Assembly (NCBI GenBank): GCA_018985235.1
Contig: JADGIG010000034.1
Coordinates: forward strand, 1 to 36,362
Length of the DNA: 36,362 nucleotides
Origin: Sanchytrium tribonematis
Taxonomy: Eukaryota
Reading direction: 5' to 3'
The notes beneath the pieces were generated by a model that saw only the letters and a program-made list of their open reading frames with translations, did not search any database and was not told the origin of the DNA. Each line of letters starts with the position of its first letter. Positions within the stretch are counted from its first letter, which is position 1. Shown one piece after another: positions 1,948 through 34,184 of this stretch. Both the position numbers and the translations under genes were made by a program.

Positions 1948-3580
1948 ATGTCCAACAGAAAAGGGTTTGTGCATCATGATGCAACATCTCCAAAAGAATC
2001 GGAAATAACTACCTATACAGAAAATACCACTACTCAATCGGTTCCTTCGCTGCGCGTCAAAGCAATTTCATTATCATTTATTGACCCACAAATGGAAAAA
2101 GGGTTTAAAAAATGGACTCTCCAAAAGTACGACAGATTTCACGTTTTTTTATACGCTATGATATTGATTTGGGTGTCTTTGTTATTTATATTTGATTATT
2201 TGGAACACGGTTTCGTAAGCCCAAATTATTTTAGAATTGGTTACTATGCTATTGCACTTATTGGGATTTTAGTTACAAAATTGACAACCAAGCATAATGA
2301 TTTTGTGGCTATAATTCTAATAACAATATTGCTCGTGTTATCTACAGGTGATGATGTCACAACATTCAATTCACTTTCTGATTTCTCAAGTTTGGAGTCG
2401 AATTGGTTTCCGATGCTAGTAATTCTCCATGCCAGCCTAAGTCTTATACACTCCCGTTCGTGGTTATATTTATTGATAGTTCCGACTTGCTACTTTGTAA
2501 GTTATTGTATTTCAAGATCATTTTTCCACACAAACAAGGTAAATTTGATTGATTTAGAATTGGTTAGACACTCAAACATTATGGTTATTATTAATGATAT
2601 TTTGCACAAGTGTGTCTGGTATGGTCGGTCAATTTCAACAACATTACCTAACAAGAAGTCTTTTTCGAGAGGAACGGATGCAAGGAAATCTTGGTGGTCA
2701 AAATAAGAGTGTAAGAAGCGAATACAAGCAGCATCTGCTATCCTTAAAATTCAAAGACAAGTCGCTGGAAAAAAAGTATTTGGCAACAAGATGGAGAGAA
2801 ACTATATTGACTAATAGACGATATTCAGCTTTCTTAGTATTGAATGCTGCGATTAGCATCATCTATGAACATTTTTGGAAATTTAATGATACCACAGTTT
2901 TAATGTACCGGTGTTTATTTCATGGCTTACCATTAATTGTATTAATGGCTGCCATTTATTTTATAAATCATACCAAAGAGCAAGAATTGAGTAAAAAATC
3001 AATAAGAGTAGCTTGGTTATACTCCGCAGTGAGAGAAAAAGTGGTTAATTACTATAGAATAACACAAGTCGGTTTACTTTTAGTATTTCTCAGCATATTA
3101 TCTGTTTATATACATCTAACTACATCTCAAAAAGATGCCCCGTTTGAGAGCGTTTTGATGCTTGTATATCTGCAATTCTGTGTTTCCACGCGATTTGGGA
3201 CTTCATACTTTCTTTTTGGAACAGCTGTACTTTTGATACAAAGCGTTGCAGTTTCGTTCTTTAGACCTGATGTTTCTAATTATGTTGTTGGAATTTTATT
3301 TAGTGCTGTAAATGCAATGATATTTATTAGATTAACTGCTTTAAAGAGAAGAAAGCTTTTTATGTTTGAGTCTTCAGAACAACATGGACTATTTACCCAA
3401 TTAGATACTCAAGTAAAAAGCATTGAGACTTTATCCACTGAATATAGACAGAGTTACGCTTCTAGTAATTTGAGCAAAGGCAATTTGAAAACTTCGTCAA
3501 ACACAAATTCAACTTTATCAAGCTCATCTGGTACAAGCTACAAATTTATGGAAAATGTCTTGAGTCTATATAGTGAATAA
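1948..3580 (+). CDS. Two-exon 537-aa polytopic membrane protein (2 x 6TM, adenylyl-cyclase-anchor-like, no catalytic domain); exons 1948-2538 and 2558-3580
   Basis: Removing the 19-nt intron fuses the 252-aa and 328-aa ORFs (HTNK|NWLDTQTLWLLLMIFC). Duplicated SLxFxDxx[ML]EKx[FY] motif precedes each hydrophobic block. Confidence 0.8.
2539..2557 (+). other. 19-nt spliceosomal intron GTAAATTTGATTGATTTAG
   Basis: GT-AG, phase 0. Its length (3n+1) is exactly the frame shift between the overlapping ORFs. Confidence 0.85.
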
Positions 3581-3665: not shown

Positions 3666-4250
3666 ATGAGCGTCTTTTTTATATCTATATTGGTTTTTGC
3701 AAGTATAGCTGACATTGATCCTAGTACATGGATGGATCCGTCTACCAAATCATCCTCATCTACTGGCCAACCCAGTACTAGTGTTCAACAAATTCCGGCG
3801 CCTTCCGATTCCCAGAAACCAACAGAATCGGCTAAATCAGGAAACAGCAACTCCACAACTGCAGCAAGCTTGTCTTCATCAAGCAGCTCAGGAGGAGCTT
3901 TACAAACTGAGTCCAATGATCAAAGTTCGTCAACAACAACGATTTCTATAATCGTAGGCTGTGCAGTTGCAGTATTATTTGGAATCGCGATCACATTTGT
4001 CTGTTGGAAAAGAAAGCGACAGGCTAGTAATCAAATAGAATTTGGAAATAAATTCGACACTCCGACATCAGCCAATTCAGATATTCCGCAGTGGAAAAGA
4101 TTTCCTTCGACTTACAATAATGTCGACGAACAAGGGTCAGTTTCTCAAATACAGTCCATTGCAGGAAAATCCGATTTTGGTGATTCCGTTTTCCGATCAA
4201 GACAATATGAATTCGAGGATTTTAATTCAATATACATGAGGTCAGGTTAA
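3666..4250 (+). CDS. Single-pass type I membrane protein with Ser/Thr-rich ectodomain (Mid2/Wsc-like architecture)
   Basis: Signal peptide, S/T-rich stalk, TM IIVGCAVAVLFGIAITFVCW followed by KRKR. Confidence 0.75.
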   Translation: MSVFFISILVFASIADIDPSTWMDPSTKSSSSTGQPSTSVQQIPAPSDSQKPTESAKSGNSNSTTAASLSSSSSSGGALQTESNDQSSSTTTISIIVGCAVAVLFGIAITFVCWKRKRQASNQIEFGNKFDTPTSANSDIPQWKRFPSTYNNVDEQGSVSQIQSIAGKSDFGDSVFRSRQYEFEDFNSIYMRSG

Positions 4251-4958: not shown

Positions 4959-5621
4959 ATGATCTTTGTTGGTGGATTGAGTGCCCTAGCTACATTAGAT
5001 CAAGTTCACGATTTTATACAAACTGTGTCGCCTAATCAGGATATTCGAAATTGGGACAACTCGTTACAAGATAAGGTTGAGAAATTAACGGAATCTGGAA
5101 TTGCTGACTCATCAGTATCCACTACCAATACCACAGTACCTGCAAGTACCACGTCTACTGATGTTTCTGAACCGACGCCGACAGTTGCTGTGTCGACTGA
5201 ACAAGATAGTGGTGGACAGGATAGCCAAAACAATGGTGATGATTCTAACAGCTCCAACAGCAGCTACAATACCTATTATGTGGTAGGAGGTGGTTGTGGC
5301 GCTGTTGTACTTGGGGGAGTTGTCGTATTTTATCTACATCGTAGAAAAAAAGCAGAAAAAGATATTTCTGGAGTTACCAGCGATTCGTCCTATTCTTCTG
5401 ATGTTGAGGAAAATGAAAGCAGAGTCACGCCAACACTTTATATGAGTGACGAGGAGCTGCAAAATTGTTCTGCTCGAAGTTCGATTTTGAGAAATGAGTA
5501 TCTCAATACTGACTCAATTATGGAAGGAAGTGTTTACTCCGAAGTTTCTGGAGTGGCAAGATACTCAAGCATATCTGAACCCTACTCAATATATTCTGAA
5601 AATTTATCTTCTGATGCTTAA
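4959..5621 (+). CDS. Single-pass type I membrane protein, S/T-rich ectodomain, S/Y-rich acidic tail
   Basis: Short signal peptide, TM YYVVGGGCGAVVLGGVVVFYL followed by HRRKK; CCAATCA 55 nt upstream. Confidence 0.75.
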   Translation: MIFVGGLSALATLDQVHDFIQTVSPNQDIRNWDNSLQDKVEKLTESGIADSSVSTTNTTVPASTTSTDVSEPTPTVAVSTEQDSGGQDSQNNGDDSNSSNSSYNTYYVVGGGCGAVVLGGVVVFYLHRRKKAEKDISGVTSDSSYSSDVEENESRVTPTLYMSDEELQNCSARSSILRNEYLNTDSIMEGSVYSEVSGVARYSSISEPYSIYSENLSSDA

Positions 5622-7745: not shown

Positions 7746-9869
7746 ATGTTTGTGAGTGTTTACAATCTCTTCGAAATAGCCATAATGGGTATTCAATTTC
7801 TATCACTTACGGCTAGTTACAATGTTGTCTGGAATAACGATTGGATTGGAATTGCTAAAGTTCTTTCTTTTTTTACACAAATCCCGATAACAGAGGATGT
7901 TAGAATTCAGCACGGTTATATTTCTTGCTTATTTCCTTTGGTAATCAGTTTGATTGTTTTATTAACTTTCAAACCTCTTTTTACTGTTTTTAAGGATGTA
8001 GTATCACTCTTTTGTTGGGCAGGACTAGGATTTGGGATATACGAATCAACTTCAAAAGAAAATGTTTCTTTGGGATTCCAGCTAATCAGTATATGTGGAG
8101 CAATATTAGGAATTTTACTCGCTGAAGCCATTATCAAAAAACTTTGGAAAAGGAGAGCAAAAAAGCTTAATCGAGCAGAAAGCTTTGATACCGAGCCAGA
8201 CGATTCAAACAAAAAACCCTTCTGGAAGCAGCTGAGAAATTTATCACTCTCTGGAATATTCATATTTGTTGCAATATTGGCGATCCAGTCCTCACAAAGT
8301 TGGTGGTATATCTTAATATTATTTGCTTGTAGCTCTCTCCTTCTCTACAATTTTATATCTAATTTAGTTCCCAAAGGAAGAGAGTTGAACTCTAAAATCA
8401 ATTATCTTTTCCGAAAGCACACAACAAAAATCATATTAACTATTCTAAGTGCTTTTTATATTCCTTTAACTCTTGATTGCTTACAATTTATCCTGCCTTC
8501 TAAATACCTTCTATATGGAAAGGATATAACTTGCACTTCGAATCAAATAATTAAAATGAAAATGCCCTTTCCTCCAGCCACCTTTGACAGCCTGATGTGC
8601 CTAGAGTCTTTTAACAACAATACTAATCATGTAAGCCTAAAAATGAGCAATTATCATCTTAGTGTTGACTTAAATCAAGAGAGATTTTACCAATCTGATA
8701 CTACCATCCCACTTTATAGTGAGGTGTATCCTTATTTGTTTCCAAGCAGCTTTATTATTTTTGCCCTGGTTTCCATAGGTCTCCCATTTTTATATTACAA
8801 GCTGGTAAATATATGCTATATTTATTTACAAGAATTACCCAAATACAACATTTCTGAGAAAAGTCAGGACTGGGGTGTCGCATCGAAATTATCCTCAAAC
8901 TGTTGCAATTCGCTTTATTGCAATTTGAATGAAAAATTCAAGGATTTTAAATTGATGATGTTGGCTTTTAGACTTTTGGTTGTGATTGTGACAAGTGCGA
9001 CCTATGTCCCAAATATTGAAGGAAACGGATCTCAATATGTATTTATAATATTAGTATTTGTACATTTTGTTATATTAGCTTCAGAAATATATTTTAGGCC
9101 CTTTACGAATTACACGGAGAATTTCTTCCTCTTTGGCTTTCAATTTGTCAATTTGGTGTTTGTAATTTTCGCAACCTTATCGGCATATAGGACAAATCTT
9201 CCAGCTGTCTTACCATTTGTGACTTTAGCTGTTATAATATTGGTGCCTATTCTGGCAATTATTGTAGGATTTTCATATGATCTTTACATTAAAAAGAAAA
9301 AAACTGAAATTGATGCCTCCTTTACTAATGTCGATGCTAGCAAAGTGATTTTGGATTTGGATATGAAGATTGACAAAAAATTACAGTCTCTAGTAGTGTT
9401 CTATTTTGCGACCCTGTATGGATTAATATTTGTAGGTTCTGCTGTGTATTATTATGGTACCACTAAGAATTTCTTCACCTTCAGGTTCTCGAATGGTAGA
9501 ACCAATGGTAACATGGAGGTGACTTTGAAAGAAATGACTAGCTTAGAAGACAAATTTCAATTTGGAAGATCTTGCGAAGATATTTCTATTTTATTGAAAA
9601 ATTGTAACTGTGTTAATATTCCACAAGTATACAAACTCAATAGTACCGAGGTCTGGAAATGTGATCAGGTTGCCTATGCTGATCAACTGCTAATTTTAGA
9701 ACGAACTACAGAAAGTAACTTTATGGATTTAAACTTCAAAATACGCCCATTTTGTTCCAACCAATTTGATACAAACTATTTATTGAGTAACATGACTCTT
9801 CGAAAGGAACCAATTGCAGATTTAGTTAATTTTGATGATTTTAATTCAGAATGGATAAAATTTTGCTGA
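7746..9869 (+). CDS. Large polytopic membrane protein with TRP-like/FLC-type C-terminal TM domain
   Basis: More than 12 hydrophobic helices; SLY...KLMMLAFRLL and YFRPFTNYTEN resemble the LY..Y..WE...RK and PY/F...N motifs. The true start may be ATG 7709 via an intron. Confidence 0.7.
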   Translation: MFVSVYNLFEIAIMGIQFLSLTASYNVVWNNDWIGIAKVLSFFTQIPITEDVRIQHGYISCLFPLVISLIVLLTFKPLFTVFKDVVSLFCWAGLGFGIYESTSKENVSLGFQLISICGAILGILLAEAIIKKLWKRRAKKLNRAESFDTEPDDSNKKPFWKQLRNLSLSGIFIFVAILAIQSSQSWWYILILFACSSLLLYNFISNLVPKGRELNSKINYLFRKHTTKIILTILSAFYIPLTLDCLQFILPSKYLLYGKDITCTSNQIIKMKMPFPPATFDSLMCLESFNNNTNHVSLKMSNYHLSVDLNQERFYQSDTTIPLYSEVYPYLFPSSFIIFALVSIGLPFLYYKLVNICYIYLQELPKYNISEKSQDWGVASKLSSNCCNSLYCNLNEKFKDFKLMMLAFRLLVVIVTSATYVPNIEGNGSQYVFIILVFVHFVILASEIYFRPFTNYTENFFLFGFQFVNLVFVIFATLSAYRTNLPAVLPFVTLAVIILVPILAIIVGFSYDLYIKKKKTEIDASFTNVDASKVILDLDMKIDKKLQSLVVFYFATLYGLIFVGSAVYYYGTTKNFFTFRFSNGRTNGNMEVTLKEMTSLEDKFQFGRSCEDISILLKNCNCVNIPQVYKLNSTEVWKCDQVAYADQLLILERTTESNFMDLNFKIRPFCSNQFDTNYLLSNMTLRKEPIADLVNFDDFNSEWIKFC

Positions 9870-9888
9870 TTAATTTTAATCTATATGA

Positions 9889-10053
9889 ATTGAACATTCA
9901 ACATGCCAAAAGCGATCTATATGTCAGGAACATTTTGTCTTTCAGGAATCAATCTTAAGGCTTAATTGTATGCACATGTTTCACCAAAATTGCATTTCAA
10001 ATTGGATTCAATACAAATACAGCTGTCCAATTTGTTTAGAGCCATGTGAATGA
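9889..10053 (+). pseudogene. RING-H2 zinc-finger fragment without an in-frame start codon
   Basis: Frame reads IEHSTCQKRSICQEHFVFQESILRLNCMHMFHQNCISNWIQYKYSCPICLEPCE*. TGA at 9886 precedes it, and the first Cys ligand position is Arg. Confidence 0.65.
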
Positions 10054-10071
10054 TGGATATCATGTTATTTA

Positions 10072-10329
10072 TTATATTTTCAATAAATAATACCAGTAAT
10101 GAGGAGGCCTAGCCACGTTCTGCAACAAGCCTTGCGATAGCACCTCATAAAAATCATTTAAATTACTGCAGTAGCCTTTCTCCGCACAGTCACTAATAAA
10201 TTTGTCCAGCTGTTTTATTTCCGTATCGTTAAGCCTTGATATTCTCAGAAGTTTCTTTATATCCGTAAGGTAATTGTATGCCATAAATGGATCTGTAAGA
10301 CCATTAACAATGATAACTGTACTGTTCAT
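10072..10329 (-). CDS. Small hypothetical protein (85 aa)
   Basis: ATG-initiated ORF; TAATAAA at its 3' end; no recognisable family. Confidence 0.45.
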   Translation of the reverse strand: MNSTVIIVNGLTDPFMAYNYLTDIKKLLRISRLNDTEIKQLDKFISDCAEKGYCSNLNDFYEVLSQGLLQNVARPPHYWYYLLKI

Positions 10330-10470
10330 GAAGTAACGGGTGCTTTACTCATTAAATACATCAAAAGCGATCTCTCATTCAGACACATCGAAGTCAAATT
10401 GGAAATATCGATTTTTGGTCGGATCGGTCAAATATTAGGTTGGATCGAAAATTTCAGGTAAAATTGAAAG

Positions 10471-10785
10471 TTATTTACTTTTATGCCCCACAAGATCGCT
10501 GTAGCTGAATGACTTTCGGGATATCCTGCAATATGTGCTATTTTGCTCTTGCCAGCCAATTATTTGCTTGAATCTTGCGACTTCGGTCGGCGTCAAATAT
10601 ATGCTGATGATTGCTAGCCATTTTTTATCACAAATGTTTTCTCTTGGAGAATACAAAATCCTATCGTCAACTTTGATAAGGAATTTGTTCATCCTTAAAA
10701 GTTCACGTAATTCTTGTGGACGATTAAGTAAAGAACACTCTTGGTTGCTGATTGTTGGTAACACAATTTTGGCGGCCAAAGTCAT
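10471..10785 (-). CDS. Small hypothetical protein (104 aa)
   Basis: ATG-initiated ORF with protein-like composition in an otherwise unoccupied gap. Confidence 0.5.
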   Translation of the reverse strand: MTLAAKIVLPTISNQECSLLNRPQELRELLRMNKFLIKVDDRILYSPRENICDKKWLAIISIYLTPTEVARFKQIIGWQEQNSTYCRISRKSFSYSDLVGHKSK

Positions 10786-10853
10786 TTTTATTGATATCTA
10801 GTTTTAGTGGGCCGCCCCCTTTTTAATTTTAGTCTAAAAATTGGCAAAAAAGT

Positions 10854-11033
10854 TTATTGGGCGTATTGGGGCAAATTGTCAAAGCTACCCGATGAAAAAA
10901 TTAGATCATAAGGAGGTAGACCATTGATCTTGGCTTGTATTGATCTGATATAAAACTGATGTTTACGAAATTCGAAAATCTTCTCATCTGGATGTTCTAT
11001 GTGATAAAGTAGAGATCCTTTGTTGTAGGTCAT
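10854..11033 (-). CDS. Small hypothetical protein (59 aa, MTYNKGSLLYHIEHPDEKIFEFRKH...), absent from the ORF track
   Basis: ATG 11033 to TAA 10854. The stop is embedded in AATAAA like many bona fide genes here. Confidence 0.35.
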   Translation of the reverse strand: MTYNKGSLLYHIEHPDEKIFEFRKHQFYIRSIQAKINGLPPYDLIFSSGSFDNLPQYAQ

Positions 11034-11152
11034 CTTTGGTTTTGGTTGTGATGAGGTGTGACTATATACCTGATCTATTCATTAGTGATCTCTAAATATT
11101 AAAAGAGTGCTCTCCGAGTTAACATATTTGTTTTAAATCTTAAATTTTGCAA

Positions 11153-12844
11153 ATGTTGCTCTTAATTTTCTTTCAAATCGGGTCGTGTTTAAAAGTTGAA
11201 GACATGTTTGATTTTTCTGTAAATTCCTATTTGAAATTAGCGTACCCTAGAGACGAGCTTCATCCTTTAAAATGTGTCGCAAAAAATCGAACAGAGCATG
11301 AAGAGGTTATGGGAGATTATATGCTAACACTTGTTGATTCGCTGACTACTGCTATCTCCATGAGACAGCCGAATCGACTTTTGCAGCTTCTTAACTTGCT
11401 GACATTGAAAAATTTTGACCTGAATTCTACAGTTGCGGTTTTTGAAGCTAATATTCGAGTTCTAGGTTCTCTAAGCAGCACAGCCTTGCTCCTCGAAGAT
11501 ACCAAATTTTTAAAATGGTTTTCTTCCAATAACACTATAACACAACAATTACGGCAACATCAGAAAAGGCTAATATCACTTGGCAAAGATCTTGGAGACA
11601 GGCTTATGAAATCATTTGCAACCTATTCTGGTATCCCAACTTCAAAAGTCAATTTAAGATACCCATTGCAACTCTACAATGTTACGTCAGAATATGTCCG
11701 AGCAGAAAACGTTGAATCCTCTCATAGAAACACAAATTGTGCCTCGGCCGGTACTCTTTTACTGGAATTTGGTATGCTTTCAAAGCTCACTAGCAATTAT
11801 ACCTACTACCGCTATGCTCGACGAGCCTTGATCGCAGCAGTCCATACTCAAACCTATTCTGGCTTGTATGGAAACGAAATTGATGTTGATGGCCGAATTA
11901 TAGACATACACCACTCATTAGGTGGAGGCATAGATTCACTTTATGAATATTTGCTGAAAGGCTATGTAGTTTTCAATGATGAAACATTACTGGATTTATT
12001 TTACCATTCTTACCAAAATCTATTTGCTCTCAATGCGTACAAGTCTCAAACCAAATATTTCTTTAAATTCAATAAGCAGTGTATTCCTGTACTTATGCCA
12101 CCGACTTTTCACTTAAATGTCAATGCAAAAACAGGTCAACTTTTAATTCCACGCATCAATGGTTTGGCCGCATTTTTTCCTGGTTTGCAAATTCTTTTTG
12201 GGGATGTGGACTTTGCATTTTATCATTTGCTAGTATATATCAGGTTATTGGAAGTGTACCCTTTTGTACCTGAGGCCTTCAACATCAATGTCCATAATGT
12301 GGAATTTAACATGTACCTATTACGTCCCGAAGTGTATGAAAGCATGGTATTTGTCAAGTCGGCTTTCAAGGCAAGTAATTTAGAAATTGACGTGACACTG
12401 GAAAATCTTACTAAAGATTGTATGGCGCGGTTTGAAAAATATTGCAAAACTAAATGCGGATACGCTAGTTTGATAAATTTGTTGCTAAAGAAGAAAGAGG
12501 GTAGAATGGAATCCTACTTTATTAGTGAAACTTTGAAATATATGCACTTAATGTTTGAAAACGAAAAGCATCCATTCTTGAGTGAACATTTTACTTTTAC
12601 AACAGAGGGTCATCCTATTAGAGTCATGAATTGGAAAAAGCAAATGTCAGAATTTCCATTGTTTAATATTAGTATCCCTAGAATTAAAAAGATTAAATTA
12701 ACCAAAAAATGCATCAAACCGCAAAATCCTTACACAAATTTAATTGAAAATCACAAATTTTCGACTTTTGAAAATTTTATATTTACTAGGAAAGTTAGGA
12801 AATTACTAAAGAAGGCATACAGAAAGGTGCTATTTAATTTCTAG
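11153..12844 (+). CDS. GH47 alpha-1,2-mannosidase, EDEM/Mnl1(Htm1)-like
   Basis: LTLVDSLTT, FEANIRVLGSL, AGTLLLEFGMLS, GGIDSLYEYLLK, LRPEVYES, MESYFISETLKY, FTTEGHP. First ATG is 11153 (the track starts at TTG). Confidence 0.92.
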   Translation: MLLLIFFQIGSCLKVEDMFDFSVNSYLKLAYPRDELHPLKCVAKNRTEHEEVMGDYMLTLVDSLTTAISMRQPNRLLQLLNLLTLKNFDLNSTVAVFEANIRVLGSLSSTALLLEDTKFLKWFSSNNTITQQLRQHQKRLISLGKDLGDRLMKSFATYSGIPTSKVNLRYPLQLYNVTSEYVRAENVESSHRNTNCASAGTLLLEFGMLSKLTSNYTYYRYARRALIAAVHTQTYSGLYGNEIDVDGRIIDIHHSLGGGIDSLYEYLLKGYVVFNDETLLDLFYHSYQNLFALNAYKSQTKYFFKFNKQCIPVLMPPTFHLNVNAKTGQLLIPRINGLAAFFPGLQILFGDVDFAFYHLLVYIRLLEVYPFVPEAFNINVHNVEFNMYLLRPEVYESMVFVKSAFKASNLEIDVTLENLTKDCMARFEKYCKTKCGYASLINLLLKKKEGRMESYFISETLKYMHLMFENEKHPFLSEHFTFTTEGHPIRVMNWKKQMSEFPLFNISIPRIKKIKLTKKCIKPQNPYTNLIENHKFSTFENFIFTRKVRKLLKKAYRKVLFNF

Positions 12845-13540
12845 CCTAGTGCGCTTGTTTTTGAATATGCTGTCTATCTCAAACAACAATTGGAATCCCA
12901 TTAATGTTACAACCAGATTGCTTTCTATTGCTAAAATGGCAGTAATATTATATTCTGACAAACTTTGTACATAAATGATCAATAAACGACCGAAGATCAT
13001 AATTGTTAGAGTATATAAAGATACGATTTTGAAATTATTTCCTTTCATTTTGGAGCACTTTGACATTAGAGAGCCAATAGAGATAATGTAAATAAGTACC
13101 AAGAAAATGGTTTGAGTAGTTGAAGTCGCCTGAAAATTGCTAGGTAGTGAAATTATATTGCTTTTATGGGTGCATTGAAATGAGTTAATGAGTACCAATA
13201 TGGAAAATATAAATAACCCCAAGTCGAAAAGGATAATCGCAACTTTTAGAACTTTTATCGTTGATTTGAAAGACCTCAAAATCAAAAATTGAGCTGTCAG
13301 TAATGTTGATGCTATTTCTAGAGATCTAAACGTATAGATAAATGAAAAGCAGTCCATGAGATTATATTTGAGTACCATAATGCTACAAATAATTAGACAA
13401 ACATTTGAAAAAATTAGGACCAAATTCACTCTCCTTTTCTTCCTTAATAAAAAAAAGCCTAGACATATACCTTGCAAATTCGCACAAGTAGCCATGCCAA
13501 ATAGAATGATGCCGCTCACATCCTTATTGAAATTTGTCAT
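12830..13540 (-). CDS. Small 7TM GPCR-like protein, paralogue 1
   Basis: GMATCANLQG TM1 motif shared with the 14157 and 15045 genes; about 7 hydrophobic helices. Confidence 0.75.
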   Translation of the reverse strand: MTNFNKDVSGIILFGMATCANLQGICLGFFLLRKKRRVNLVLIFSNVCLIICSIMVLKYNLMDCFSFIYTFRSLEIASTLLTAQFLILRSFKSTIKVLKVAIILFDLGLFIFSILVLINSFQCTHKSNIISLPSNFQATSTTQTIFLVLIYIISIGSLMSKCSKMKGNNFKIVSLYTLTIMIFGRLLIIYVQSLSEYNITAILAIESNLVVTLMGFQLLFEIDSIFKNKRTRLEIK

Positions 13541-13947: not shown

Positions 13948-14156
13948 TTCTCGACTAATATAATTAAGAGTTGATAGAATCAAAGTCACACGTGAATAAT
14001 ATGAAACTGATTGCCGATAATTTTTATTCGTAAACAATGGGGAATAATCATATTGATGTATGAAGATCTTTAAATGAACACACAACTAGAGGTTTTTAAG
14101 GCAAGTGCGGCGACTATCAAGAAATCCCTCTGCGATAAAGTGTTTTTCAAGCCACA

Positions 14157-14987
14157 ATGATTTTTCAAAATATCGACTGGAGTCATTACATATATTTTGG
14201 AATCGCGATCAATGCGAATTTACAGGGATTAATTATGTCTCCTTTGCTACTTATGAAGGATTTTAAACGAAATTGGTTTATTGTGATATCTAATATTCTA
14301 TATTTCATTGGAAACTGGGTCTCATTTTTCGGTAATTCCATCGATTGTGACACGGCTATGTACGTAGTACAATTAACGATAATCACAGGCTCAATCTTTG
14401 AGGTTCACACGCCTCTTGTACGCGCTTATAAATTATTGGAAGGTAAGTTGAAGAGGAGCATTCCAATACTTAGTGGATCTTTAATTATATGTATATTCTG
14501 CAGTCTCGCTGGCATTCATAGTATGTGCTACACAAGTTCGTCTCATTTTGTGAAAATATTTGTTTCGATTGTTCCAGACTTGATTGCTAGTATATTTTCC
14601 ATTTCGATTTATTTGATCTCATTTTGGAAAATCATTGAACTTATTGATAGCAGTGAATTTGGCAAGGACAATCCTAAGATGCAAATGATAAGAGCCATAG
14701 CCAAATTTTCTATGTATTTTATGGTATTAGTACGATGTTGCATGATAGGATTTTCAATAGGAGGACTCGATACAAATCAAAAACTTTCCACTGCTTTAAG
14801 AACTAATCTAGTTGTGTTCTTAATGATAGTACAACTAACTCTAGAGCTCACCAAGTCATCAGGAGAAACATCTGAACGAAGTGATGTTGAATCAGTTGGA
14901 AAAAGAAGAAATACTAGAGACGATTTCAAGGATAATAACAAACAATCTGTAAAGCCAACCCAGTCATTTGCTATAATGCACGAATAA
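14157..14987 (+). CDS. Small 7TM GPCR-like protein, paralogue 2
   Basis: GIAINANLQG, FEVHTPLVRAY, SSEFGKDN, RTNLVVFLM; high similarity to the next gene. Confidence 0.8.
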   Translation: MIFQNIDWSHYIYFGIAINANLQGLIMSPLLLMKDFKRNWFIVISNILYFIGNWVSFFGNSIDCDTAMYVVQLTIITGSIFEVHTPLVRAYKLLEGKLKRSIPILSGSLIICIFCSLAGIHSMCYTSSSHFVKIFVSIVPDLIASIFSISIYLISFWKIIELIDSSEFGKDNPKMQMIRAIAKFSMYFMVLVRCCMIGFSIGGLDTNQKLSTALRTNLVVFLMIVQLTLELTKSSGETSERSDVESVGKRRNTRDDFKDNNKQSVKPTQSFAIMHE

Positions 14988-15044
14988 ATTTTAGATGTTA
15001 TAATTTGATAATATATTTTATGTTACTCGTGGTGGCTTGTTCAA

Positions 15045-15914
15045 ATGTCATCTTCAGGAGACTATTACGATTATGCTGACTGGGGATTTTACTTCTGTTT
15101 TGGAGCCGCTATATGCGCTAATTTTCAAGGATTGTTAATATCAACCGTGCTACTTAAGAAAAACTGGAGAAGAAATATCGTGATTGTCATAGCTAACATC
15201 TGTTATTTAATCAGCAATTGGATTTCATTCGGTCAATCTACAACAGAAAATTGCACCTCTACAGGATACGCGGTCCAAATAATGCTTATCTTTGGTTCCT
15301 TATTTGAAGCTCACACCCCTTTGCTTCGAGCCTTTTCCTTACTTACACCAAGGTGGAAGAAGGCGGCGCCAATTTTAAGCGCTATAATGATTATTGCCCA
15401 ATTTTGTACCTTAATTGGTGTGCAATTTATATGTGATTCAGAAGAACATCAGTTTATGGTGGTAGTTCATAGACGATCTGCTGACGCGGTCGCTTCTTTG
15501 TTTGCAATTTATATTTATATATTGTCATTCTCTAAAATTATTCAAGTAATTGATACTAGTCAGTTTGGTAAATCAAATGGAAGAATGAAAGTCATTAGGA
15601 CTTTGTCAAAATATTCCATGCTTTTCGCTATTGCCATGAGAGTTGTTATCGCTCTATTCGACATTGGACGACTTGACAAAAATGGAAAAGTTGTTATGGC
15701 AATGAGATCGAATATTGTGGTGTTTTTAATGGCTACACAATTGTGCTTAGAACTGAGCAAGTTGAGCAGTGACGGTTCAGAGTATAGTGACTCAGATAGC
15801 ATTACCGGTGCAAACAAGGGTACAGGATCAGCGACTGGTCATACTACATCCAAATCTAAAGCTGAGCACAGAATTTCAGCTATGTCCGCGTCCTCCAAAA
15901 AATTTCACAAGTAA
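15045..15914 (+). CDS. Small 7TM GPCR-like protein, paralogue 3 (tandem duplicate)
   Basis: GAAICANFQG, FEAHTPLLRAF, TSQFGKSN, RSNIVVFLM; S/T-rich C-tail. Confidence 0.8.
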   Translation: MSSSGDYYDYADWGFYFCFGAAICANFQGLLISTVLLKKNWRRNIVIVIANICYLISNWISFGQSTTENCTSTGYAVQIMLIFGSLFEAHTPLLRAFSLLTPRWKKAAPILSAIMIIAQFCTLIGVQFICDSEEHQFMVVVHRRSADAVASLFAIYIYILSFSKIIQVIDTSQFGKSNGRMKVIRTLSKYSMLFAIAMRVVIALFDIGRLDKNGKVVMAMRSNIVVFLMATQLCLELSKLSSDGSEYSDSDSITGANKGTGSATGHTTSKSKAEHRISAMSASSKKFHK

Positions 15915-21312: not shown

Positions 21313-21360
21313 ATAAATCAAGGTCGTATTATAATACTTCTGAAACTTCGTTGTGAGATA

Positions 21361-23635
21361 ATGAATCAATTAAAAGAAGCCTTTTCTAACAAAGACATAA
21401 ACTTGTTACTAAAAAGATGCAAATTGGTGTTAAATTCTTCAGGAAATGATGCCAAAGATTTGAATTCATTAGGGGTTGAAATATGGAACTCAGCTGTAAA
21501 GTTGCAACTGGATAAAAGATATAAAATATGCGCTTTTATATTGATGGCCGCATATTTTAAAGATTCTTATGATTTCAAATCTTCTATTAAACTTATTGCG
21601 ATGGCAGGAAGATTGCTTGCTGAATCGGAAAAAACAGACTGTGATTATATCTATGGTCTTGTATCAAATAGAATTGATCAAACTCTTGGAATGCTAAAAG
21701 CTAAGAACAAGTACCAAAAATTTGTTGCTGATATTGTTCCGATTTTGCTTTACAAACTAAAACAAGGTTGGTTTGAAAATGACCTTTCAATATCAATTCT
21801 TCATATTGAAAAGTTCATGCTGGTTCAAACATCTAAAATTGAAAAAGAACAATTATTGATGTGCATTCTCAATTTATACAGGTCAGATCAGCCTACAGAC
21901 GAAACTCAGTTGACTTTATTGTCGTTGCTTGAAAATTTAGCAAATGCCAGTGATAATCCTTTCGCAGCAAAATACTACTTGATTATCAGTGAGGTAAATT
22001 TGAAACTTAACAAAATAGAAGAAGCCAAATGTGCTCTGATTAAATCTTCTGAGGCGCAAATCATGTTAAAGGGGATTTTTCTAGCACTGACAATACCCAA
22101 TTTTCTCAACACATCCCCAGAAACGTTTCTATTCGAGTGTTTATCAAAAATTGGTATTGTGCATGAAACCTACAACGATGTTGCTTTGTTGTATAATGAA
22201 GTTTGTAAAATTTCCAATGAACTTGCTCTTGCCTATTTAACTGCTGTATTCTCAAGAAGTCGAGCACACCCTGCAAAATGTAAAGATTTAACTAACAAAA
22301 CTGCTTCTTTGATGTTAGAATGTTTGATAGGAAATGAAGACACAAAGCAAATCAACATTTTCATTGAAGACATATTTGAGACCATCAATGATGCAAAGCT
22401 TTCTAATAGTATTTGCATATTATTATGGATAAAGGGGGATGATTGTTTATCAAATTTTGAATACCAAAATGCTTTGAATTATTTTGAGCCATCTCTGAGA
22501 TTATTAAAGCCCGAACAAGATAATTATCTGATTCTGAAAAAGAAAATCTGTTTCTGCAAACTGCAATTAGGTGCTTTGGACTCCAGCGATATTTTAGACG
22601 ATCCGTTCCTATCGTTCCAATACAACTTGCTGTTTAGTATTTCAAATTGTTTTGGTTTAATTGAAAGTATGGAAGACCCTAATGTATTAATTGGATGTGC
22701 TTCTCTAGCTTTTCAAAAAAAAGAATCAAAACTTTTATTGTGTATTCTTGATAAAATTCATACTGTCTGCAGCAAAGGCGATTTGGATATTTGTTTGACA
22801 AGGGCAGCGATTCGTTTAGCCATCAAAGTAGATTTAAACATTGAATTGATCATCTCGATTCTTAAGAAAGCCGATAATCAACTTGATAAAGAGGAAATGA
22901 ACTGGTTTTACAATGTCACTTGGAATCTTTGCCTACAAATATATCAAATAGATCAAATATCTGCTTTTAGGTTGCTTGAAATCAACGTAAATTTTGCAGC
23001 AACAACAGATTTAAGAATTAATAGCCTTTTGTTCATGTGTTCTATAGGCTATGAGATTTTTGAGCAATATAACGTTGATCACATTTTAACCGATATTGAC
23101 AATGCTTGTAATCTAATAGCGGAAAATAATTTGACAGACTTGATCGAAACCTCGGCAAAAATGCAGTTAGAAATTTATATGTTATTTCAGAAGGAGCAAG
23201 AAGCGTTAGATCTCTTACCGTGCTTTAAGTCATTACAGCCCGGAATCTTAGTTGAAGTGTTGGAAAATAGCTGTATTTCGATAAAATGTAATTTTATTTA
23301 ATTAAGTTGCGATTCCTCTTTTAGAAACGATTTTATTGTCGAACAATATAGTAGCCATTTCCAAGGCGTTGCGAATTTTTATATCGAATCATAAAGAAGT
23401 TGACCATTTGCCTTATTTTAAAAAGGCCTTGGCTTTTGTTCACGATAAGGCGTATTGTCAAGAGGAACTTATTTGGCTCATGATAACTGCTTGGAATAAA
23501 GGGATTAATGAGTTCACTTTATACAAAAAAGTAGGCGAATGGTGTGATATCGCATTTCAAATCCTAAAGCATCTGGATAATAAGGAACAATACCAAAAGC
23601 AAATGGAAACTGCATATATCGAGATGATGCAATAA
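21361..23635 (+). CDS. SPO22: Meiotic TPR protein Zip4/Spo22/TEX11 (751 aa); exons 21361-23287 and 23307-23635
   Basis: LNSLGVEIWN, ILLWIKGD..L...YQNALNYF..SL, EEMNWFYNVTWNL, YCQEELIWLMITAWNKG. The two ORFs are joined by a 19-nt intron. Confidence 0.82.
23288..23306 (+). other. 19-nt spliceosomal intron GTAATTTTATTTAATTAAG
   Basis: Phase 1. Removal reads SIKFAIPLLETILLSNNIV into the 23336 ORF. Confidence 0.85.
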
Positions 23636-23848
23636 ATCTATGCCAATAAAATTTGATCACCGAGTTTTGCCAATTAGTTATTGGGTGGGTAATTATAAAT
23701 TGGTCTCTAACTTTAACTTTGTGGCAATCCGGTTCCCTTAGTTTCACTGATACTACTTAATTAGACAGTATACCACATATAAATACTCCAAAAAGCATTT
23801 TTATATTTTAATTGAATGAAACACCTTGGGTAGGTGGCTTGAGTAAAG

Positions 23849-26434
23849 ATGATCCAGTTTTTGTTATTTGTGGTAGCTATTACCACACCAGTGGATTTAG
23901 AGTCTTTCTGTATTGAAATCGCGGACTTTTTCGCAACTTTAAATGCATATCGGACTTGGAGTGATACATATTGCACTAACACCACATTTCCGACTTTCTT
24001 TGGAGTTATTTACAATGACGCAGATTATATAATAGATTTCAACACTCTAGTCATACCTGGAACATTTGACTTTGCTAAGATCCCGTATGTTGATCAATTA
24101 ACTTACATAAGATTGAATGGAAATGAGATTACAGAAGTGGTGAATACAACATTAGCAGTGAATTTGAGACAATTGAGCGTCGCTAATAATTTGTGCACTT
24201 CAATACCACTATTACCCCAAAATCTAGCTGTATTTGAGTTTGACGGAAATCCAGTTCAAAACAGAAGCTACCTACCAGAATTACCACCTCGACTTGAGTC
24301 ACTTATGATAAGGTATTTGAGCTTGAACATATCATTGCCTCATCTTCCCACATCTCTGCGTTTTGTCGATATAGAATACAACACGTTCTATGGATTACTA
24401 CCAGATCTGAGTACTTTTTCGAATTTAACAAATTTCAAAGGATATGGTAATTATCTGACAGGCTCTCTTCGTTTACCAGAATCCGTTTTAGAATTACGCC
24501 TGAGTGGAAATGGGCTAAATGGGACTCTTCCAATACTACCTCATAATTTACAGACATTTATTGTCAATGGCAATCATTTCACAGGAACTTTGCCTAAATT
24601 CCCAGTTTCTATTCAAAACATTAGACTCAAAAACAATCGTTTAGAAGGAAATGTAAATTTAACAAATCCAAATTTGCAAATTGTAATTTTAAGTGGCAAT
24701 TTATTTTCAGGCACTCTGCTGGTTGACAGTTTGTCATTAACGCATTTAGATGCATCAGACAACTATTTTGAAAATGCGACCATTATTGCTAGTCAGTCGT
24801 TTTTCACCCCCCTCGACTGCGTGTTGACACTAAATAGAATTTATCTGGCTGAAGTAAGTGATCCAAATATTAAAAGTTGTGACATTACTTTTAGAAACGA
24901 TACCTTACCTTCAAATACGTTTTTGTCAGAAACAATATTAAAGAACAGCTTTTCTACGTTTTCCACAGTTTTAAATTCGTCAACCCAAATTGAGAGCCTT
25001 GCAAGTTACAATGGCGACACATTGACTGCAGAAGTTGCTGCGTCAACTTATGAAGTTGTTTTATCAATCTCTGAAAATACAGCATCTTCGAATTACCATG
25101 AGAGTGTGTCATTCGGCACAAATGATCTTGCTCCTACCGCTACTTTATCATCAGAGAATCTTTTACTGTCAAATTTTTATAGTAGTGAATCTACCGATAC
25201 AAATCCAATTACACAGACCAGTTTTCACGAAGGCTTATCGAATATAGTAGATGTTATTACCAACACTAACTCTCTAGATTCGCTTACCACTGTTGACTCC
25301 ACCAGTAGTTACAGTAGTTTCACCTCTAGTTTGGAAAATTCATATATGTCTAGTATTCAAAATTCGTCTCAATTATCTTCTAAAATGTTAATTTGGCAAA
25401 AAGCAAATATTATAACGATGGAATCAACAATTGTCTCTACAAGACCGATCGAATTAGCAGATTCTTCAATTGAAATTAAAGAGACGGCCATTGTCGTCAC
25501 TCGATTTAAGCAATTTACTTACAGCCACGAAGATCTAAATGTCACAGAATCGAAATCGAATGAAATTATACAAGTCTTTGCTAACCCGCCAAAAAACTTA
25601 CCTAAAAATTTTGTCAACAATAATTTAAGCGATCGTTTTGTTATACTTTTAAATTCCGAAATAGACCCATCCACAATTGTAGGAATTTTAATCGCCGGCT
25701 TGGCTTTGGTGACATATATAATATGCTTAATAGAAAGAAAGAAGACACTTGTTAAGCAGTTCAGCTTGCTTTTGATCAGTTTTTTATTTGTTGGAATATT
25801 AATATCATGTCTAGGACTGGTTTTTAATATACCAGGTTACTTCTGGGCTCGAAATATTTGCAAAGAAACTGGAATGTGGTTAGCTACGTTGTCTTTTATG
25901 TCTTATTATGCCCGAATTTTCTTTATTGTTGAAAGGCCAATCAATAGTAAGTTATTGACTAGGTTTTCCAATTTAGCGATTACTTGGTATATAACCCTGT
26001 TATTAGTTATATTGCCGACTCTGATTGTAGCTTTAACTTCCATATTCACATTCGATAATCAGTTTGTGCCAGTAACATTTGGGTGCATAAGGCTTTTAAT
26101 GCTGCTTAGATTCACCACAAGTGTCTTTCTCGAAGAATCAAAATTACTGCCATTTAAACCGGTCTTGGCGCTTCTGATATTAAGCGCTCTAGATTTGGTT
26201 TTTACGTTGCCATTAGAAATAACTAGTGAAGTTGCATTTGGCTTAGCCTCAATGTCTGCACTATTGGGCTACTTGCTTGTAGCTTTTTCATTGGTAGGTT
26301 GGAAACGGAAAGCAATGGAGTTACAGTCAACTAAATTGGCTTCGCAATTCACAAGTGTTTCTAAACATTTGGGACCTATATTCTCCTGGACAAAACAACC
26401 CGTAACGAAATCTGAGATTAGATCGAAACAGTAA
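23849..26434 (+). CDS. LRR-ectodomain receptor with S/T stalk and class-C-GPCR-like 7TM domain
   Basis: Signal peptide; LxxLxLxxNxLxGxLP repeats; S/T-rich stalk; 7 C-terminal hydrophobic helices with ICKETGMWL...YYARIFFI and EESK. Confidence 0.75.
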   Translation: MIQFLLFVVAITTPVDLESFCIEIADFFATLNAYRTWSDTYCTNTTFPTFFGVIYNDADYIIDFNTLVIPGTFDFAKIPYVDQLTYIRLNGNEITEVVNTTLAVNLRQLSVANNLCTSIPLLPQNLAVFEFDGNPVQNRSYLPELPPRLESLMIRYLSLNISLPHLPTSLRFVDIEYNTFYGLLPDLSTFSNLTNFKGYGNYLTGSLRLPESVLELRLSGNGLNGTLPILPHNLQTFIVNGNHFTGTLPKFPVSIQNIRLKNNRLEGNVNLTNPNLQIVILSGNLFSGTLLVDSLSLTHLDASDNYFENATIIASQSFFTPLDCVLTLNRIYLAEVSDPNIKSCDITFRNDTLPSNTFLSETILKNSFSTFSTVLNSSTQIESLASYNGDTLTAEVAASTYEVVLSISENTASSNYHESVSFGTNDLAPTATLSSENLLLSNFYSSESTDTNPITQTSFHEGLSNIVDVITNTNSLDSLTTVDSTSSYSSFTSSLENSYMSSIQNSSQLSSKMLIWQKANIITMESTIVSTRPIELADSSIEIKETAIVVTRFKQFTYSHEDLNVTESKSNEIIQVFANPPKNLPKNFVNNNLSDRFVILLNSEIDPSTIVGILIAGLALVTYIICLIERKKTLVKQFSLLLISFLFVGILISCLGLVFNIPGYFWARNICKETGMWLATLSFMSYYARIFFIVERPINSKLLTRFSNLAITWYITLLLVILPTLIVALTSIFTFDNQFVPVTFGCIRLLMLLRFTTSVFLEESKLLPFKPVLALLILSALDLVFTLPLEITSEVAFGLASMSALLGYLLVAFSLVGWKRKAMELQSTKLASQFTSVSKHLGPIFSWTKQPVTKSEIRSKQ

Positions 26435-32548: not shown

Positions 32549-33904
32549 TTAATCGTAGTATTCTGATTCGCGAACGTCTGTAAACATACTGTTTTCAGTG
32601 TACATTGTATTTTGTTGTTCGTATTTAGACTCATATTCTGGTTCGTACTCGGGCTCAAAATCAGGATCTTCAGTATACTCAGAATAATTAGTTTTGGTCC
32701 TGTCTTCTGTAAATTCTGTATAGTTAGTCTTGGTACGATCCTCTGTCAGATCCGATAAATCTGAATTGTTGTCGTCAGAAAATTCAGTGTAATTTGTTTT
32801 GCCTCTACTGGTCAATTCCGAATAATCAGTGAAGAATGTATCAACCTTCGAGTAGTCATTTTCAGAAGGTATATCACTTGCATTTGAATATGCTGTGAAG
32901 CCATCACTATTTTTTGAAAAATCAGTGTAAATAGTGTTGCTTGCGAACTCGGAATACTTATCATCATCGCTTTCTTTAGAGTAGGATGTCCTACCTACAG
33001 AATAAGTCGTATACTTGTCTGAATTAGAGTCTGTTGATACTCTTTTGCCACTAATGTCTTCAAATTCTTGCACATTATCTGTTTCACTCCATTTTGTTTC
33101 TCTTGGATCTTCAGCATATCCAGCTGTAGAGATATCTGTATATGTTGTTTCTCTAATGCTATCGAGCTGGTTCTCAGACGATCCACTGCTCTCGTCTATT
33201 TTATAAGTTCCACTAGAAATTTGCTTTCCAGTTTTAAATCGTGAACGGAATTTAAAACATAATCCAACGATTAGGAAAAAAACCAAGGCACCAACTATGG
33301 ATCCAATAATGACATAAGGCAATGTGTTTGGAGTCGGTGGAGGACTAGATATATCTACCATTCCGTCAGTCTGTAAAAACTCAGCAGGAATGTCAGTGGT
33401 AACACTGGTTAGGTCAGTTGTCGCGGAGTTATCTGCAGATTGATATACAGCTTGTTGATTTGATGATACGTCGGGCAAAAATCGTAGTAAAAATCCATTT
33501 ACAACATCGGGAACAATTTCCTGTAATAATAACGTCATATTCGTTCCTTCTTGAATATTACCATTCACACCAATAAATCTAAACAAAGTTGAATACTGAT
33601 TGTTGGTTTTGCCTAGAGCATCTTTCGGGAGACGCGCATCAAACCACAAATTTGGACTTAAATAAATGCTAAATGGTTTCCATATTTTTAGAATTTTCGT
33701 TTGTGAAGCAAAATTTAAACTCAGTGCTATTGCATTAACTGTATTTGCTTTTGAAAGAAAATCTTCTGGCACAGATGCCGTGAATTCTGCACCAAATTGT
33801 CTAGCCTTGTAGTCGATATATTTCACTTGATAAGAAATAGAGGAGCCTGGTATCTTGGGGGGTGATTGAGCCATTACTAGAAGACCCGGCCAAAGAACCA
33901 TCAT
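32549..33904 (-). CDS. Type I membrane protein with folded ectodomain and long acidic Tyr/Ser/Thr-rich cytoplasmic tail
   Basis: Signal peptide, TM YVIIGSIVGALVFFLIVGLCF followed by KFRSRFK, repetitive tail. Confidence 0.8.
   Translation of the reverse strand: MMVLWPGLLVMAQSPPKIPGSSISYQVKYIDYKARQFGAEFTASVPEDFLSKANTVNAIALSLNFASQTKILKIWKPFSIYLSPNLWFDARLPKDALGKTNNQYSTLFRFIGVNGNIQEGTNMTLLLQEIVPDVVNGFLLRFLPDVSSNQQAVYQSADNSATTDLTSVTTDIPAEFLQTDGMVDISSPPPTPNTLPYVIIGSIVGALVFFLIVGLCFKFRSRFKTGKQISSGTYKIDESSGSSENQLDSIRETTYTDISTAGYAEDPRETKWSETDNVQEFEDISGKRVSTDSNSDKYTTYSVGRTSYSKESDDDKYSEFASNTIYTDFSKNSDGFTAYSNASDIPSENDYSKVDTFFTDYSELTSRGKTNYTEFSDDNNSDLSDLTEDRTKTNYTEFTEDRTKTNYSEYTEDPDFEPEYEPEYESKYEQQNTMYTENSMFTDVRESEYYD
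32675..32746 (-). repeat. Two 36-nt coding tandem repeats (TEDRTKTNYTEF / TEDRTKTNYSEY)
   Basis: Units 32711-32746 and 32675-32710 differ mostly at synonymous positions. Confidence 0.8.
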
Positions 33905-34184
33905 AGCAAAATGCCGGAAATCAATTAAGTATTGTAATTAATTTAACTTGCAGCCAATCAGTTAGAAAAAAAGTAATACGCAGGGATTTTGAAAATTGGC
34001 ATTTGCTGTGGTACGTAATTTTTCATATGTTCTTTCAGATGAATAAAATCTCTATACAATTATGGAAAATACAATTGGACTTGAAACGAGCCAGCCAGCA
34101 TTGCATACAGGTGGAATCATTTGATTCGAGGAGTCTGATTGGTACACATTTATATATTAATCGATCAGTTTCCGTTTGCCAATT

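What the first reader, a model, noticed from the sequence alone, without database searches (positions are those of the whole stretch)
1948..3580. Adenylyl-cyclase membrane anchors without the enzyme: a 2x6TM protein lacking both cyclase domains
Seen: after splicing, the protein has two hydrophobic blocks. Each is preceded by ISLSFIDPQMEKGF or LSLKFKDKSLEKKY and followed by RSLF or RRKLF. Only about 30 aa separate block 1 from the second motif, and a Ser-rich tail follows block 2. The next gene starts 85 nt later, leaving no room for a catalytic exon. Known: in class III transmembrane adenylyl/guanylyl cyclases an LxFxxxxLExxY motif precedes, and an RxxF motif follows, each 6TM anchor, with catalytic domains after each anchor. 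Inference: a stand-alone anchor/receptor module, i.e. a pseudo-cyclase, a sensor, or a partner of a separately encoded catalytic subunit.
Basis: partly seen in the sequence, partly recalled or inferred. Interest (0 to 1): 0.7.

Follow-up and report, generated by a model that had tools for sequence, protein, structure and literature searches.

The report
Cyclase membrane anchor without its enzyme
A conserved fungal gene encodes a predicted twelve-helix membrane protein that likely descends from the membrane anchor of adenylyl cyclase but has no catalytic domain, so it probably acts as a stand-alone sensor or scaffold for a separate signalling enzyme and could show what these anchors do by themselves.

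Summary
Observation confirmed. The gene (1948-3580, +) is split by a 19-nt GT-AG intron (2539-2557) and gives 537 residues: two predicted six-helix blocks, a 26-residue linker, no cyclase domain. Orthologues at 63-69% identity come from five other lineages; one record is named Amoeboradix gromovi, so this is probably a sanchytrid fungus. One orthologous locus has a 20-nt intron at the same codon, the same stop and a similar downstream gene. Synonymous sites are saturated, so this is not a decaying pseudogene. Kinship to class III cyclase anchors is likely but not proven. For: a weak Pfam PF06327 hit (E 7e-4), language-model features of both halves nearest to AC_N/MASE8 among named families, and anchor-like motifs. 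Against: no AC_N or MASE HMM hit, no PDB sequence hit, and both structure models failed. No fused, catalytic form was found (weak evidence). Best reading: a non-catalytic sensor or scaffold that docks a separately encoded cyclase or phosphodiesterase; the partner is untested. I found no such anchor-only protein in print, and the scan had nothing by sequence. Side finding: 19-20-nt introns.

The parts
1948..2538 (+). Exon 1, residues 1-197: cytosolic N-terminus, first motif, predicted helices 1-5
   Evidence: ORF from ATG 1948; 4 orthologues at 63-66% identity whose conservation stops at this junction
2539..2557 (+). 19-nt GT-AG intron, phase 0
   Evidence: Shortest GT-AG join that keeps both conserved blocks; 20-nt GT-AG intron at the same codon in L001:214-233
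2558..3580 (+). Exon 2, residues 198-537 and stop: predicted helix 6, linker, helices 7-12, tail
   Evidence: ORF; 4 orthologous clusters at 63-69% identity
1987..2052 (+). Highly conserved N-terminal Ser/Thr-rich segment (residues 14-35), likely a binding or phosphorylation site
   Evidence: 0.70-0.86 column identity in the ten-residue blocks 11-40; function inferred
2071..2106 (+). Pre-anchor motif 1 (LxF-x4-ME-xx-F/Y, residues 42-53)
   Evidence: Present in 5 of 5 exon-1 proteins
2603..2665 (+). End of predicted helix 6 and its cytosolic extension, C-x4-G-x11-R-x2-F (residues 213-233)
   Evidence: Present in 4 of 4 sequences checked; residues 221-240 invariant in 3 to 4 sequences
2699..2791 (+). 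Segment matching the end of Pfam PF06327 (adenylate cyclase conserved domain), including pre-anchor motif 2 (2744-2779)
   Evidence: E 7.2e-4, 20.6 bits against a cut-off of 21.1, profile positions 64-94 of 98
2822..3343 (+). Second predicted six-helix block (about residues 286-459) with a conserved cytosolic loop between helices 8 and 9 (2984-3052)
   Evidence: Hydropathy; six long helices in a low-confidence model; loop 0.80-0.92 column identity
3347..3436 (+). Conserved extension after helix 12 (residues 461-490), likely the remnant of the helical domain
   Evidence: 0.79-0.92 column identity; helical-domain reading is inferred
3437..3541 (+). Variable Ser-rich spacer (residues 491-525)
   Evidence: 0.18-0.39 column identity in blocks 491-520
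3542..3577 (+). Conserved C-terminal ENVLS element, possibly a remnant of cyclase transducer element 2 (NxLP centre, Pro replaced by Ser)
   Evidence: 6 of 6 sequences checked, ending 7-9 residues after the Asn; CTE_2 centre from PMC9552081

Best explanation
This is a conserved, spliced 537-residue membrane protein with no catalytic domain, likely derived from a twelve-helix class III cyclase by loss of both catalytic domains, and it probably works as a non-catalytic sensor or scaffold that docks a separately encoded cyclic-nucleotide enzyme. Shown: the gene structure, the short linker, the stop where the second catalytic domain would begin, and purifying selection. Inferred: the two six-helix blocks pack into one bundle; the conserved extensions of helices 6 and 12 form a short cytosolic stalk; this stalk, the helix 8-9 loop and both termini make a binding surface; and a lipid or host-surface cue sensed in the bundle is passed through that surface to a partner cyclase (most likely) or phosphodiesterase. 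My odds: anchor ancestry about 0.75; partner is a cyclase or PDE about 0.5 given that ancestry; no partner was identified.
For: Gene and selection; pN 0.22-0.30 against pS 0.85-0.94, saturated, window versus L001. Anchor kinship: PF06327 is the top Pfam hit for exon 2 and recurs weakly in 5 of 6 orthologous exon-2 proteins (E 0.003-0.23), at the profile's end, just before the second block. ESM Atlas features: for exon 2 the only named families shown are AC_N (0.94, 183 of 256 features, on 33% of members) and MASE8 (0.90); for exon 1, MASE8 (0.93), AC_N (0.92, 61% of members), MASE11, MASE6, MASE2. PMC9552081 (passages) reports an invariant L(Y/F)MC with an exactly spaced Gly in the last helix of TM1 of AC3/AC8, an invariant stretch ahead of TM1, and NxLP in CTE_2; here there are an IFC/IVC/IIC-x4-G helix, pre-anchor motifs and a terminal ENVLS. 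That the Gly and R-x2-F spacing equals the mammalian one is recalled, not tested. The two exon products folded together with weak support: ipSAE 0.44, best of 3 controls 0.22, runs agree in at least 52% of contacts, partner pLDDT at least 65. This mark was reached by 51 of 78 solved and 2 of 108 mismatched pairs, but at 0.60 or under by only 5 of 78 solved and by all 4 mismatches that passed; halves of one gene can pass by likeness to solved structures. Partners exist in the lineage: the stored part of the A. gromovi annotation lists 4 COG2114 cyclases and 4 KOG3689 PDEs (PMC8371127 supplement 4). The related Blastocladiella has multi-TM, double-domain ACs (PMC9730499). The most conserved segments are mostly hydrophilic and predicted cytosolic.
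Against: PF06327 stays under its curated cut-off and covers about 30 residues. No Pfam hit to AC_N, MASE7 or MASE8. No cyclase chain among PDB sequence hits at E up to 10. The best Atlas rows for both halves are clusters with no common family; exon 1 has recognition 2025, below the 2300 mark, so its scores are weak evidence. The two halves are not significantly similar to each other (7 of 60 shuffles reach the score), although true mAC halves are not either. CTE_1 (SxL/MP) is absent and ENVLS lacks the Pro and lies 62-68 residues after RRKLF. No cyclase or PDE motif was found in the window, so there is no neighbourhood support for a partner.
Confidence: 0.55

Rival explanations
1. Anchor-derived, but it no longer serves a cyclic-nucleotide enzyme: it is a membrane scaffold or receptor for G proteins, GPCRs, channels or a kinase, or its ancestor was a PDE or histidine kinase with the same kind of anchor.
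For: Cyclase TM domains bind GPCRs, POPDC and the G-gamma lipid (PMC12414865). MASE-type clusters score as well as AC_N. The transducer elements are lost or altered.
Against: The only Pfam signal is cyclase-specific. The 6+6 layout with motifs before both blocks and a CTE_2-like end fits the pseudo-heterodimeric cyclase best.
Confidence: 0.25
2. An unrelated 12-helix transporter or channel whose motifs resemble cyclase anchors by chance.
For: 6+6 topology is common. No significant HMM, PDB or fold match to an anchor.
Against: No transporter or channel family appears in Pfam at E up to 1-5 or among the named Atlas families shown. Motifs sit at both block starts and both block ends.
Confidence: 0.12
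3. One subunit of a split cyclase: the matching catalytic domains survive as a separate gene or trans-spliced exon and reassemble with this anchor as an obligate enzyme.
For: The protein ends just after a CTE_2-like element, a natural fission point; cyclase genes exist in the lineage.
Against: The first catalytic domain was removed internally, leaving a 26-residue linker and no CTE_1, which fission alone does not give. In AC8, isolated C1 and C2 did not combine in cells without their anchors (PMC12414865).
Confidence: 0.06
4. Two separate genes, a frameshifted pseudogene or an assembly error.
For: Public protein sets hold the two halves as separate ORFs. No exon-2 protein could be paired with P0012. 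Splicing was not seen in RNA.
Against: A GT-AG insert of different sequence and length (20 nt) sits at the same codon in L001. All 5 exon-1 products lose conservation at the same Val codon. Two other genes in the window have 19-nt intron candidates. Synonymous sites are saturated.
Confidence: 0.02

Closest known systems
Mammalian membrane adenylyl cyclases AC1-9 (class IIIa), TM1/TM2 anchor
   Same: Two predicted six-helix blocks; a conserved stretch before each block; PF06327-like segment before the second block; Cys/Gly pattern in helix 6; a conserved extension after helices 6 and 12; a CTE_2-like end
   Different: No C1a or C2a; linker of 26 residues where mACs have about 80 + C1a + 145-205 residues (PMC9552081); no CTE_1; CTE_2 Pro missing; sequence too divergent for a significant HMM match
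Multi-TM, double-domain adenylyl cyclases of Blastocladiella emersonii (groups 6-7, PMC9730499)
   Same: Nearest fungal lineage known to carry multi-TM cyclases with a duplicated domain; plausible source of the ancestor (inferred)
   Different: They keep catalytic domains; I could not compare sequences
UGO (unique GC organizer) of Toxoplasma and Plasmodium (PMC10275601)
   Same: Functional analogue: a separate multipass membrane protein needed to up-regulate a cyclase in response to cues
   Different: No homology shown or tested; the passages read do not describe UGO as anchor-derived; apicomplexan
Bacterial six-helix cyclase sensors (MASE8, Rv1625c/CqsS-type anchors)
   Same: Language-model features of both halves score 0.90-0.93 against MASE8 clusters; such anchors can act as receptors in chimeras (PMC12414865)
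   Different: Single block fused to an output domain; no Pfam HMM hit here

Membership tests
Class IIIa membrane adenylyl/guanylyl cyclase (enzyme) | Two class III catalytic domains (PF00211) after the anchors | tested here: not met
   No PF00211 hit; 26-residue linker; stop conserved in 6 of 6 exon-2 proteins checked
Class IIIa membrane adenylyl/guanylyl cyclase (enzyme) | CTE_1 (SxL/MP) and CTE_2 (NxLP) transducer elements | tested here: not met
   No CTE_1 in the linker; terminal ENVLS lacks the Pro (definitions)
Class IIIa membrane adenylyl/guanylyl cyclase (enzyme) | Cyclase activity | not testable with these tools
   Not expected without catalytic domains
Class IIIa cyclase membrane anchor (TM1+TM2) | Two blocks of six membrane helices | tested here: met
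   Hydropathy, helices 2 and 4 marginal; six long helices in block 2 in a low-confidence model
Class IIIa cyclase membrane anchor (TM1+TM2) | Significant profile match to anchor families (PF16214 AC_N, PF06327, PF20968 MASE8) | tested here: inconclusive
   PF06327 20.6 bits against cut-off 21.1; no HMM hit to the others; Atlas features 0.90-0.94
Class IIIa cyclase membrane anchor (TM1+TM2) | Fold superposes on solved anchors (AC5, AC8, AC9, Rv1625c) | tested here: inconclusive
   Models at pLDDT 39 and 44; searches gave only noise
Class IIIa cyclase membrane anchor (TM1+TM2) | The two blocks pack into one 12-helix bundle | tested here: inconclusive
   Weak support, 0.44 against best control 0.22
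Class IIIa cyclase membrane anchor (TM1+TM2) | Conserved motifs before each block and at the exits of helices 6 and 12 | tested here: met
   Present in all orthologues that cover them; the reference motifs come partly from PMC9552081 and partly from recall
UGO-like cyclase organiser | Binds and regulates a cyclase in trans | not testable with these tools
   No genome held, so no candidate partner sequence was available
12-helix transporter or channel | Family profile or fold match | tested here: inconclusive
   No Pfam hit; fold searches uninformative

The most novel reading that the evidence does not exclude
A eukaryote has kept the complete twelve-helix cyclase anchor under strong selection after deleting both catalytic domains, turning it into a free-standing receptor that senses a lipid or host-alga cue and controls a separate cyclase in trans. 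It would be natural proof that cyclase anchors have a signalling job of their own, and a clean reagent to find their ligands.
Probability: 0.3. Interest if true: 0.8.

Novelty: new variant of a known kind. Interest (0 to 1): 0.58.

Why it matters
What the twelve-helix anchor of adenylyl cyclases does beyond tethering is described as an open question, with receptor and interaction-hub roles proposed (PMC12414865, main text read; PMC9552081, passages). An anchor kept by selection without its enzyme must do something by itself, and it can be studied or grafted onto a reporter cyclase without interference from catalysis. Limits: kinship is not yet structurally proven, the family is known from six lineages of one fungal group, and the hosts are algal parasites, for which I know of no genetic tools (recalled). 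The 19-20-nt introns also mean that protein sets made by plain ORF calling hide genes like this one.

Tried and rejected
No genome is held for the window, so the search for soluble cyclases in its own genome could not be run; the genome search had no usable handle. No RNA holder was listed, which is no evidence on expression or splicing. Longer or fused forms: none at E up to 10 among 7,990 scored candidates of 596-2000 residues (weak evidence); the 1.84-billion-representative search gave 2 hits, the family itself and P0014. P0014 was rejected: a 1,381-aa repeat protein whose score comes from one 42-column match repeated six times, probability 5.6%. No related loci in viral or prokaryote collections. 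PDB sequence searches gave nothing relevant. Two AlphaFold2 models of exon-2 parts failed (pLDDT 39.3 and 43.5); Foldseek and VIA searches with them gave no match at E 0.001 or Z 8, and no cyclase among listed rows; this says nothing on the fold. Exon 1 was not modelled alone and the spliced protein was not folded as one chain. Internal-repeat test not significant. The alternative donor at 2497 (GTAAGT, 61-nt intron) was rejected because it removes 14 residues conserved in orthologues. Literature: searches listed no paper on a stand-alone cyclase anchor, judged from titles and abstract starts (20 of 21 listed); the library lacks most subscription journals. The scan's earlier notes had nothing by sequence or place and nothing holding all words.

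Full report
Setting. The window is a gene-dense, about 35% GC fungal-type sequence: the upstream gene is an STE12-type factor and an APSES/ankyrin regulator lies further on. No whole genome is held. One orthologue of the target (P0012, 63% identity to exon 1) is in a record named Amoeboradix gromovi, so the family is sanchytrid-type; that the window itself is from a sanchytrid is my inference.

Gene structure. Two overlapping frames cover 1948-2706 and 2558-3580. Of the possible GT-AG joins, the 19-nt intron 2539-2557 keeps all conserved sequence and gives 537 residues. Three lines support it. (a) All 5 exon-1 proteins are conserved up to the same Lys/Asn-Val junction and diverge after it. Reading those run-through tails, two orthologues imply 19 nt and one implies 20 nt; this is inferred from protein sequence only. 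(b) The one orthologous DNA locus found (1 of 492 candidate stretches) has a 20-nt GT-AG insert of different sequence at the same codon. (c) The phosphatidylserine-synthase-like gene (name recalled from its sequence) at 26830-26812 and the SPO22-like gene at 23288-23306 have 19-nt intron candidates. Splicing was not seen in RNA. The sanchytrid genome paper predicted proteins with TransDecoder on contigs (PMC8371127, passages), which would explain why databases hold the halves separately.

No catalytic domain. RSLF (230) and the second motif (260) are 26 residues apart. The protein ends 76 residues after the start of RRKLF, and 6 of 6 exon-2 proteins checked end 7-9 residues after the Asn of the same ENVLS element. 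No short intron rescues the frame beyond 15 residues and the next ATG is 85 nt on. In L001 the next gene is again a signal-peptide, Ser/Thr-rich, single-pass protein. Searches for longer forms found none, which is weak evidence.

Conservation. Exon 1 has 4 orthologues at 63-66% and exon 2 has 4 orthologous clusters at 63-69%. With L001 and P0012 this makes five lineages besides the window. Against L001, pN is 0.22-0.30 and pS 0.85-0.94: strong purifying selection. The most conserved blocks are residues 21-30, 151-170, 221-240, 261-300, 341-360, 461-480 and 531-537; several membrane helices are at 0.3-0.55. Apart from helix 4 and the start of helix 7, conservation concentrates on predicted cytosolic surfaces.

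Is it a cyclase anchor? The top Pfam hit is PF06327, 19.1 bits on all of exon 2 and 20.6 bits (E 7.2e-4) on its first 101 residues, against a cut-off of 21.1. It recurs weakly in 5 of 6 orthologous exon-2 proteins. ESM Atlas features give AC_N and MASE8 as the best named families for each half separately, below clusters with no common family; the exon-1 query has low recognition. Published anchor marks (PMC9552081, passages and section 4) have counterparts here: an invariant stretch before the first helix, a Cys with a spaced Gly in helix 6, and an NxLP-like end with Ser for Pro; CTE_1 has none. Against this: no AC_N or MASE HMM hit, no PDB sequence hit, no significant similarity between halves (true mAC halves lack it too), and failed models. 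Co-folding the two exon products gave weak support, 0.44 against a best control of 0.22, with pLDDT 63-71. Such a pass is more often wrong than right unless likely beforehand, and may reflect likeness to solved structures. I put anchor ancestry at about 0.75.

How it most likely works. Shown: intact gene, selection, no catalytic domain. Inferred: one 12-helix bundle; a shortened stalk from helices 6 and 12; a conserved cytosolic face that binds a partner. Cyclase anchors are proposed to be lipid receptors and interaction modules, and chimeras show that six-helix anchors can pass ligand signals (PMC12414865, main text). UGO shows that a separate multipass protein can control a cyclase in trans (PMC10275601, passages). 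The A. gromovi annotation lists 4 class III cyclases and 4 PDEs in the part of supplement 4 that is stored; the file was cut, so further entries and the second species' sheet may be missing. Sanchytrids also keep the rhodopsin-cyclase light circuit (PMC8371127; PMC9616733, passages). Blastocladiella has multi-TM double-domain ACs (PMC9730499, passages), a plausible ancestor type that I could not compare. I therefore favour a non-catalytic sensor or scaffold for a separate cyclase or PDE (0.55), over a scaffold for other partners (0.25), an unrelated transporter (0.12), an obligate split enzyme (0.06) or an artefact (0.02). PMC13466520 (passages) was used only for the helical-domain and CTE definitions; its supplementary alignment of protist cyclase anchors was not seen and could serve for a profile comparison.

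Membership and novelty. It is not a member of the class IIIa cyclases as an enzyme: catalytic domains and intact CTEs were tested and not met. It probably is a member of their anchor family, with the profile and fold tests inconclusive. My searches listed no stand-alone anchor. The scan's notes hold a related case, a protist 12-helix cyclase with two degenerate but present catalytic domains (e1-7155521, not checked here); here the domains are gone. Verdict: a real, new variant of a known kind; interest 0.58, and 0.8 if the free-standing receptor reading holds.

Noticed in passing
window 2539-2557 (+), 26830-26812 (-), 23288-23306 (+); L001:214-233: Introns of 19-20 nt, among the shortest spliceosomal introns known to me (recalled). 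In two sanchytrid papers searched for the word, 'intron' occurs only in a reference title (PMC8371127, PMC10459994), and none of the 20 listed of 59 papers holds 'tiny introns' or 'ultrashort introns'. It may deserve its own study.
   Followed up: partly
window 12830-13540 (-), 14139-14987 (+), 15012-15914 (+): Three similar-looking multi-pass membrane ORFs of 236-300 aa, two in tandem, possibly a divergent receptor family; no Pfam hit at E 0.01 for the two scanned.
   Followed up: partly
window 3666-4250, 4959-5621 (+), 32549-33937 (-); L001:1431-1795: Several signal-peptide, Ser/Thr-rich, single-pass proteins resembling surface sensors; one directly follows the target gene in both the window and L001.
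   Followed up: no
window 7746-9869 (+) and 23843-26434 (+): Two large multi-pass membrane proteins without Pfam hits; the second has a leucine-rich-repeat-like ectodomain, a Ser/Thr stalk and about seven C-terminal helices, like an LRR-GPCR (read by eye).
   Followed up: no
window 21313-23301 (+): SPO22/ZIP4-like meiotic gene (Pfam E 0.0066), hinting at retained meiosis.
   Followed up: no
window 9870-11143: 1.3 kb without an ORF of 110 aa or more in an otherwise tightly packed window; it may hold a gene broken by tiny introns or a non-coding element.
   Followed up: no
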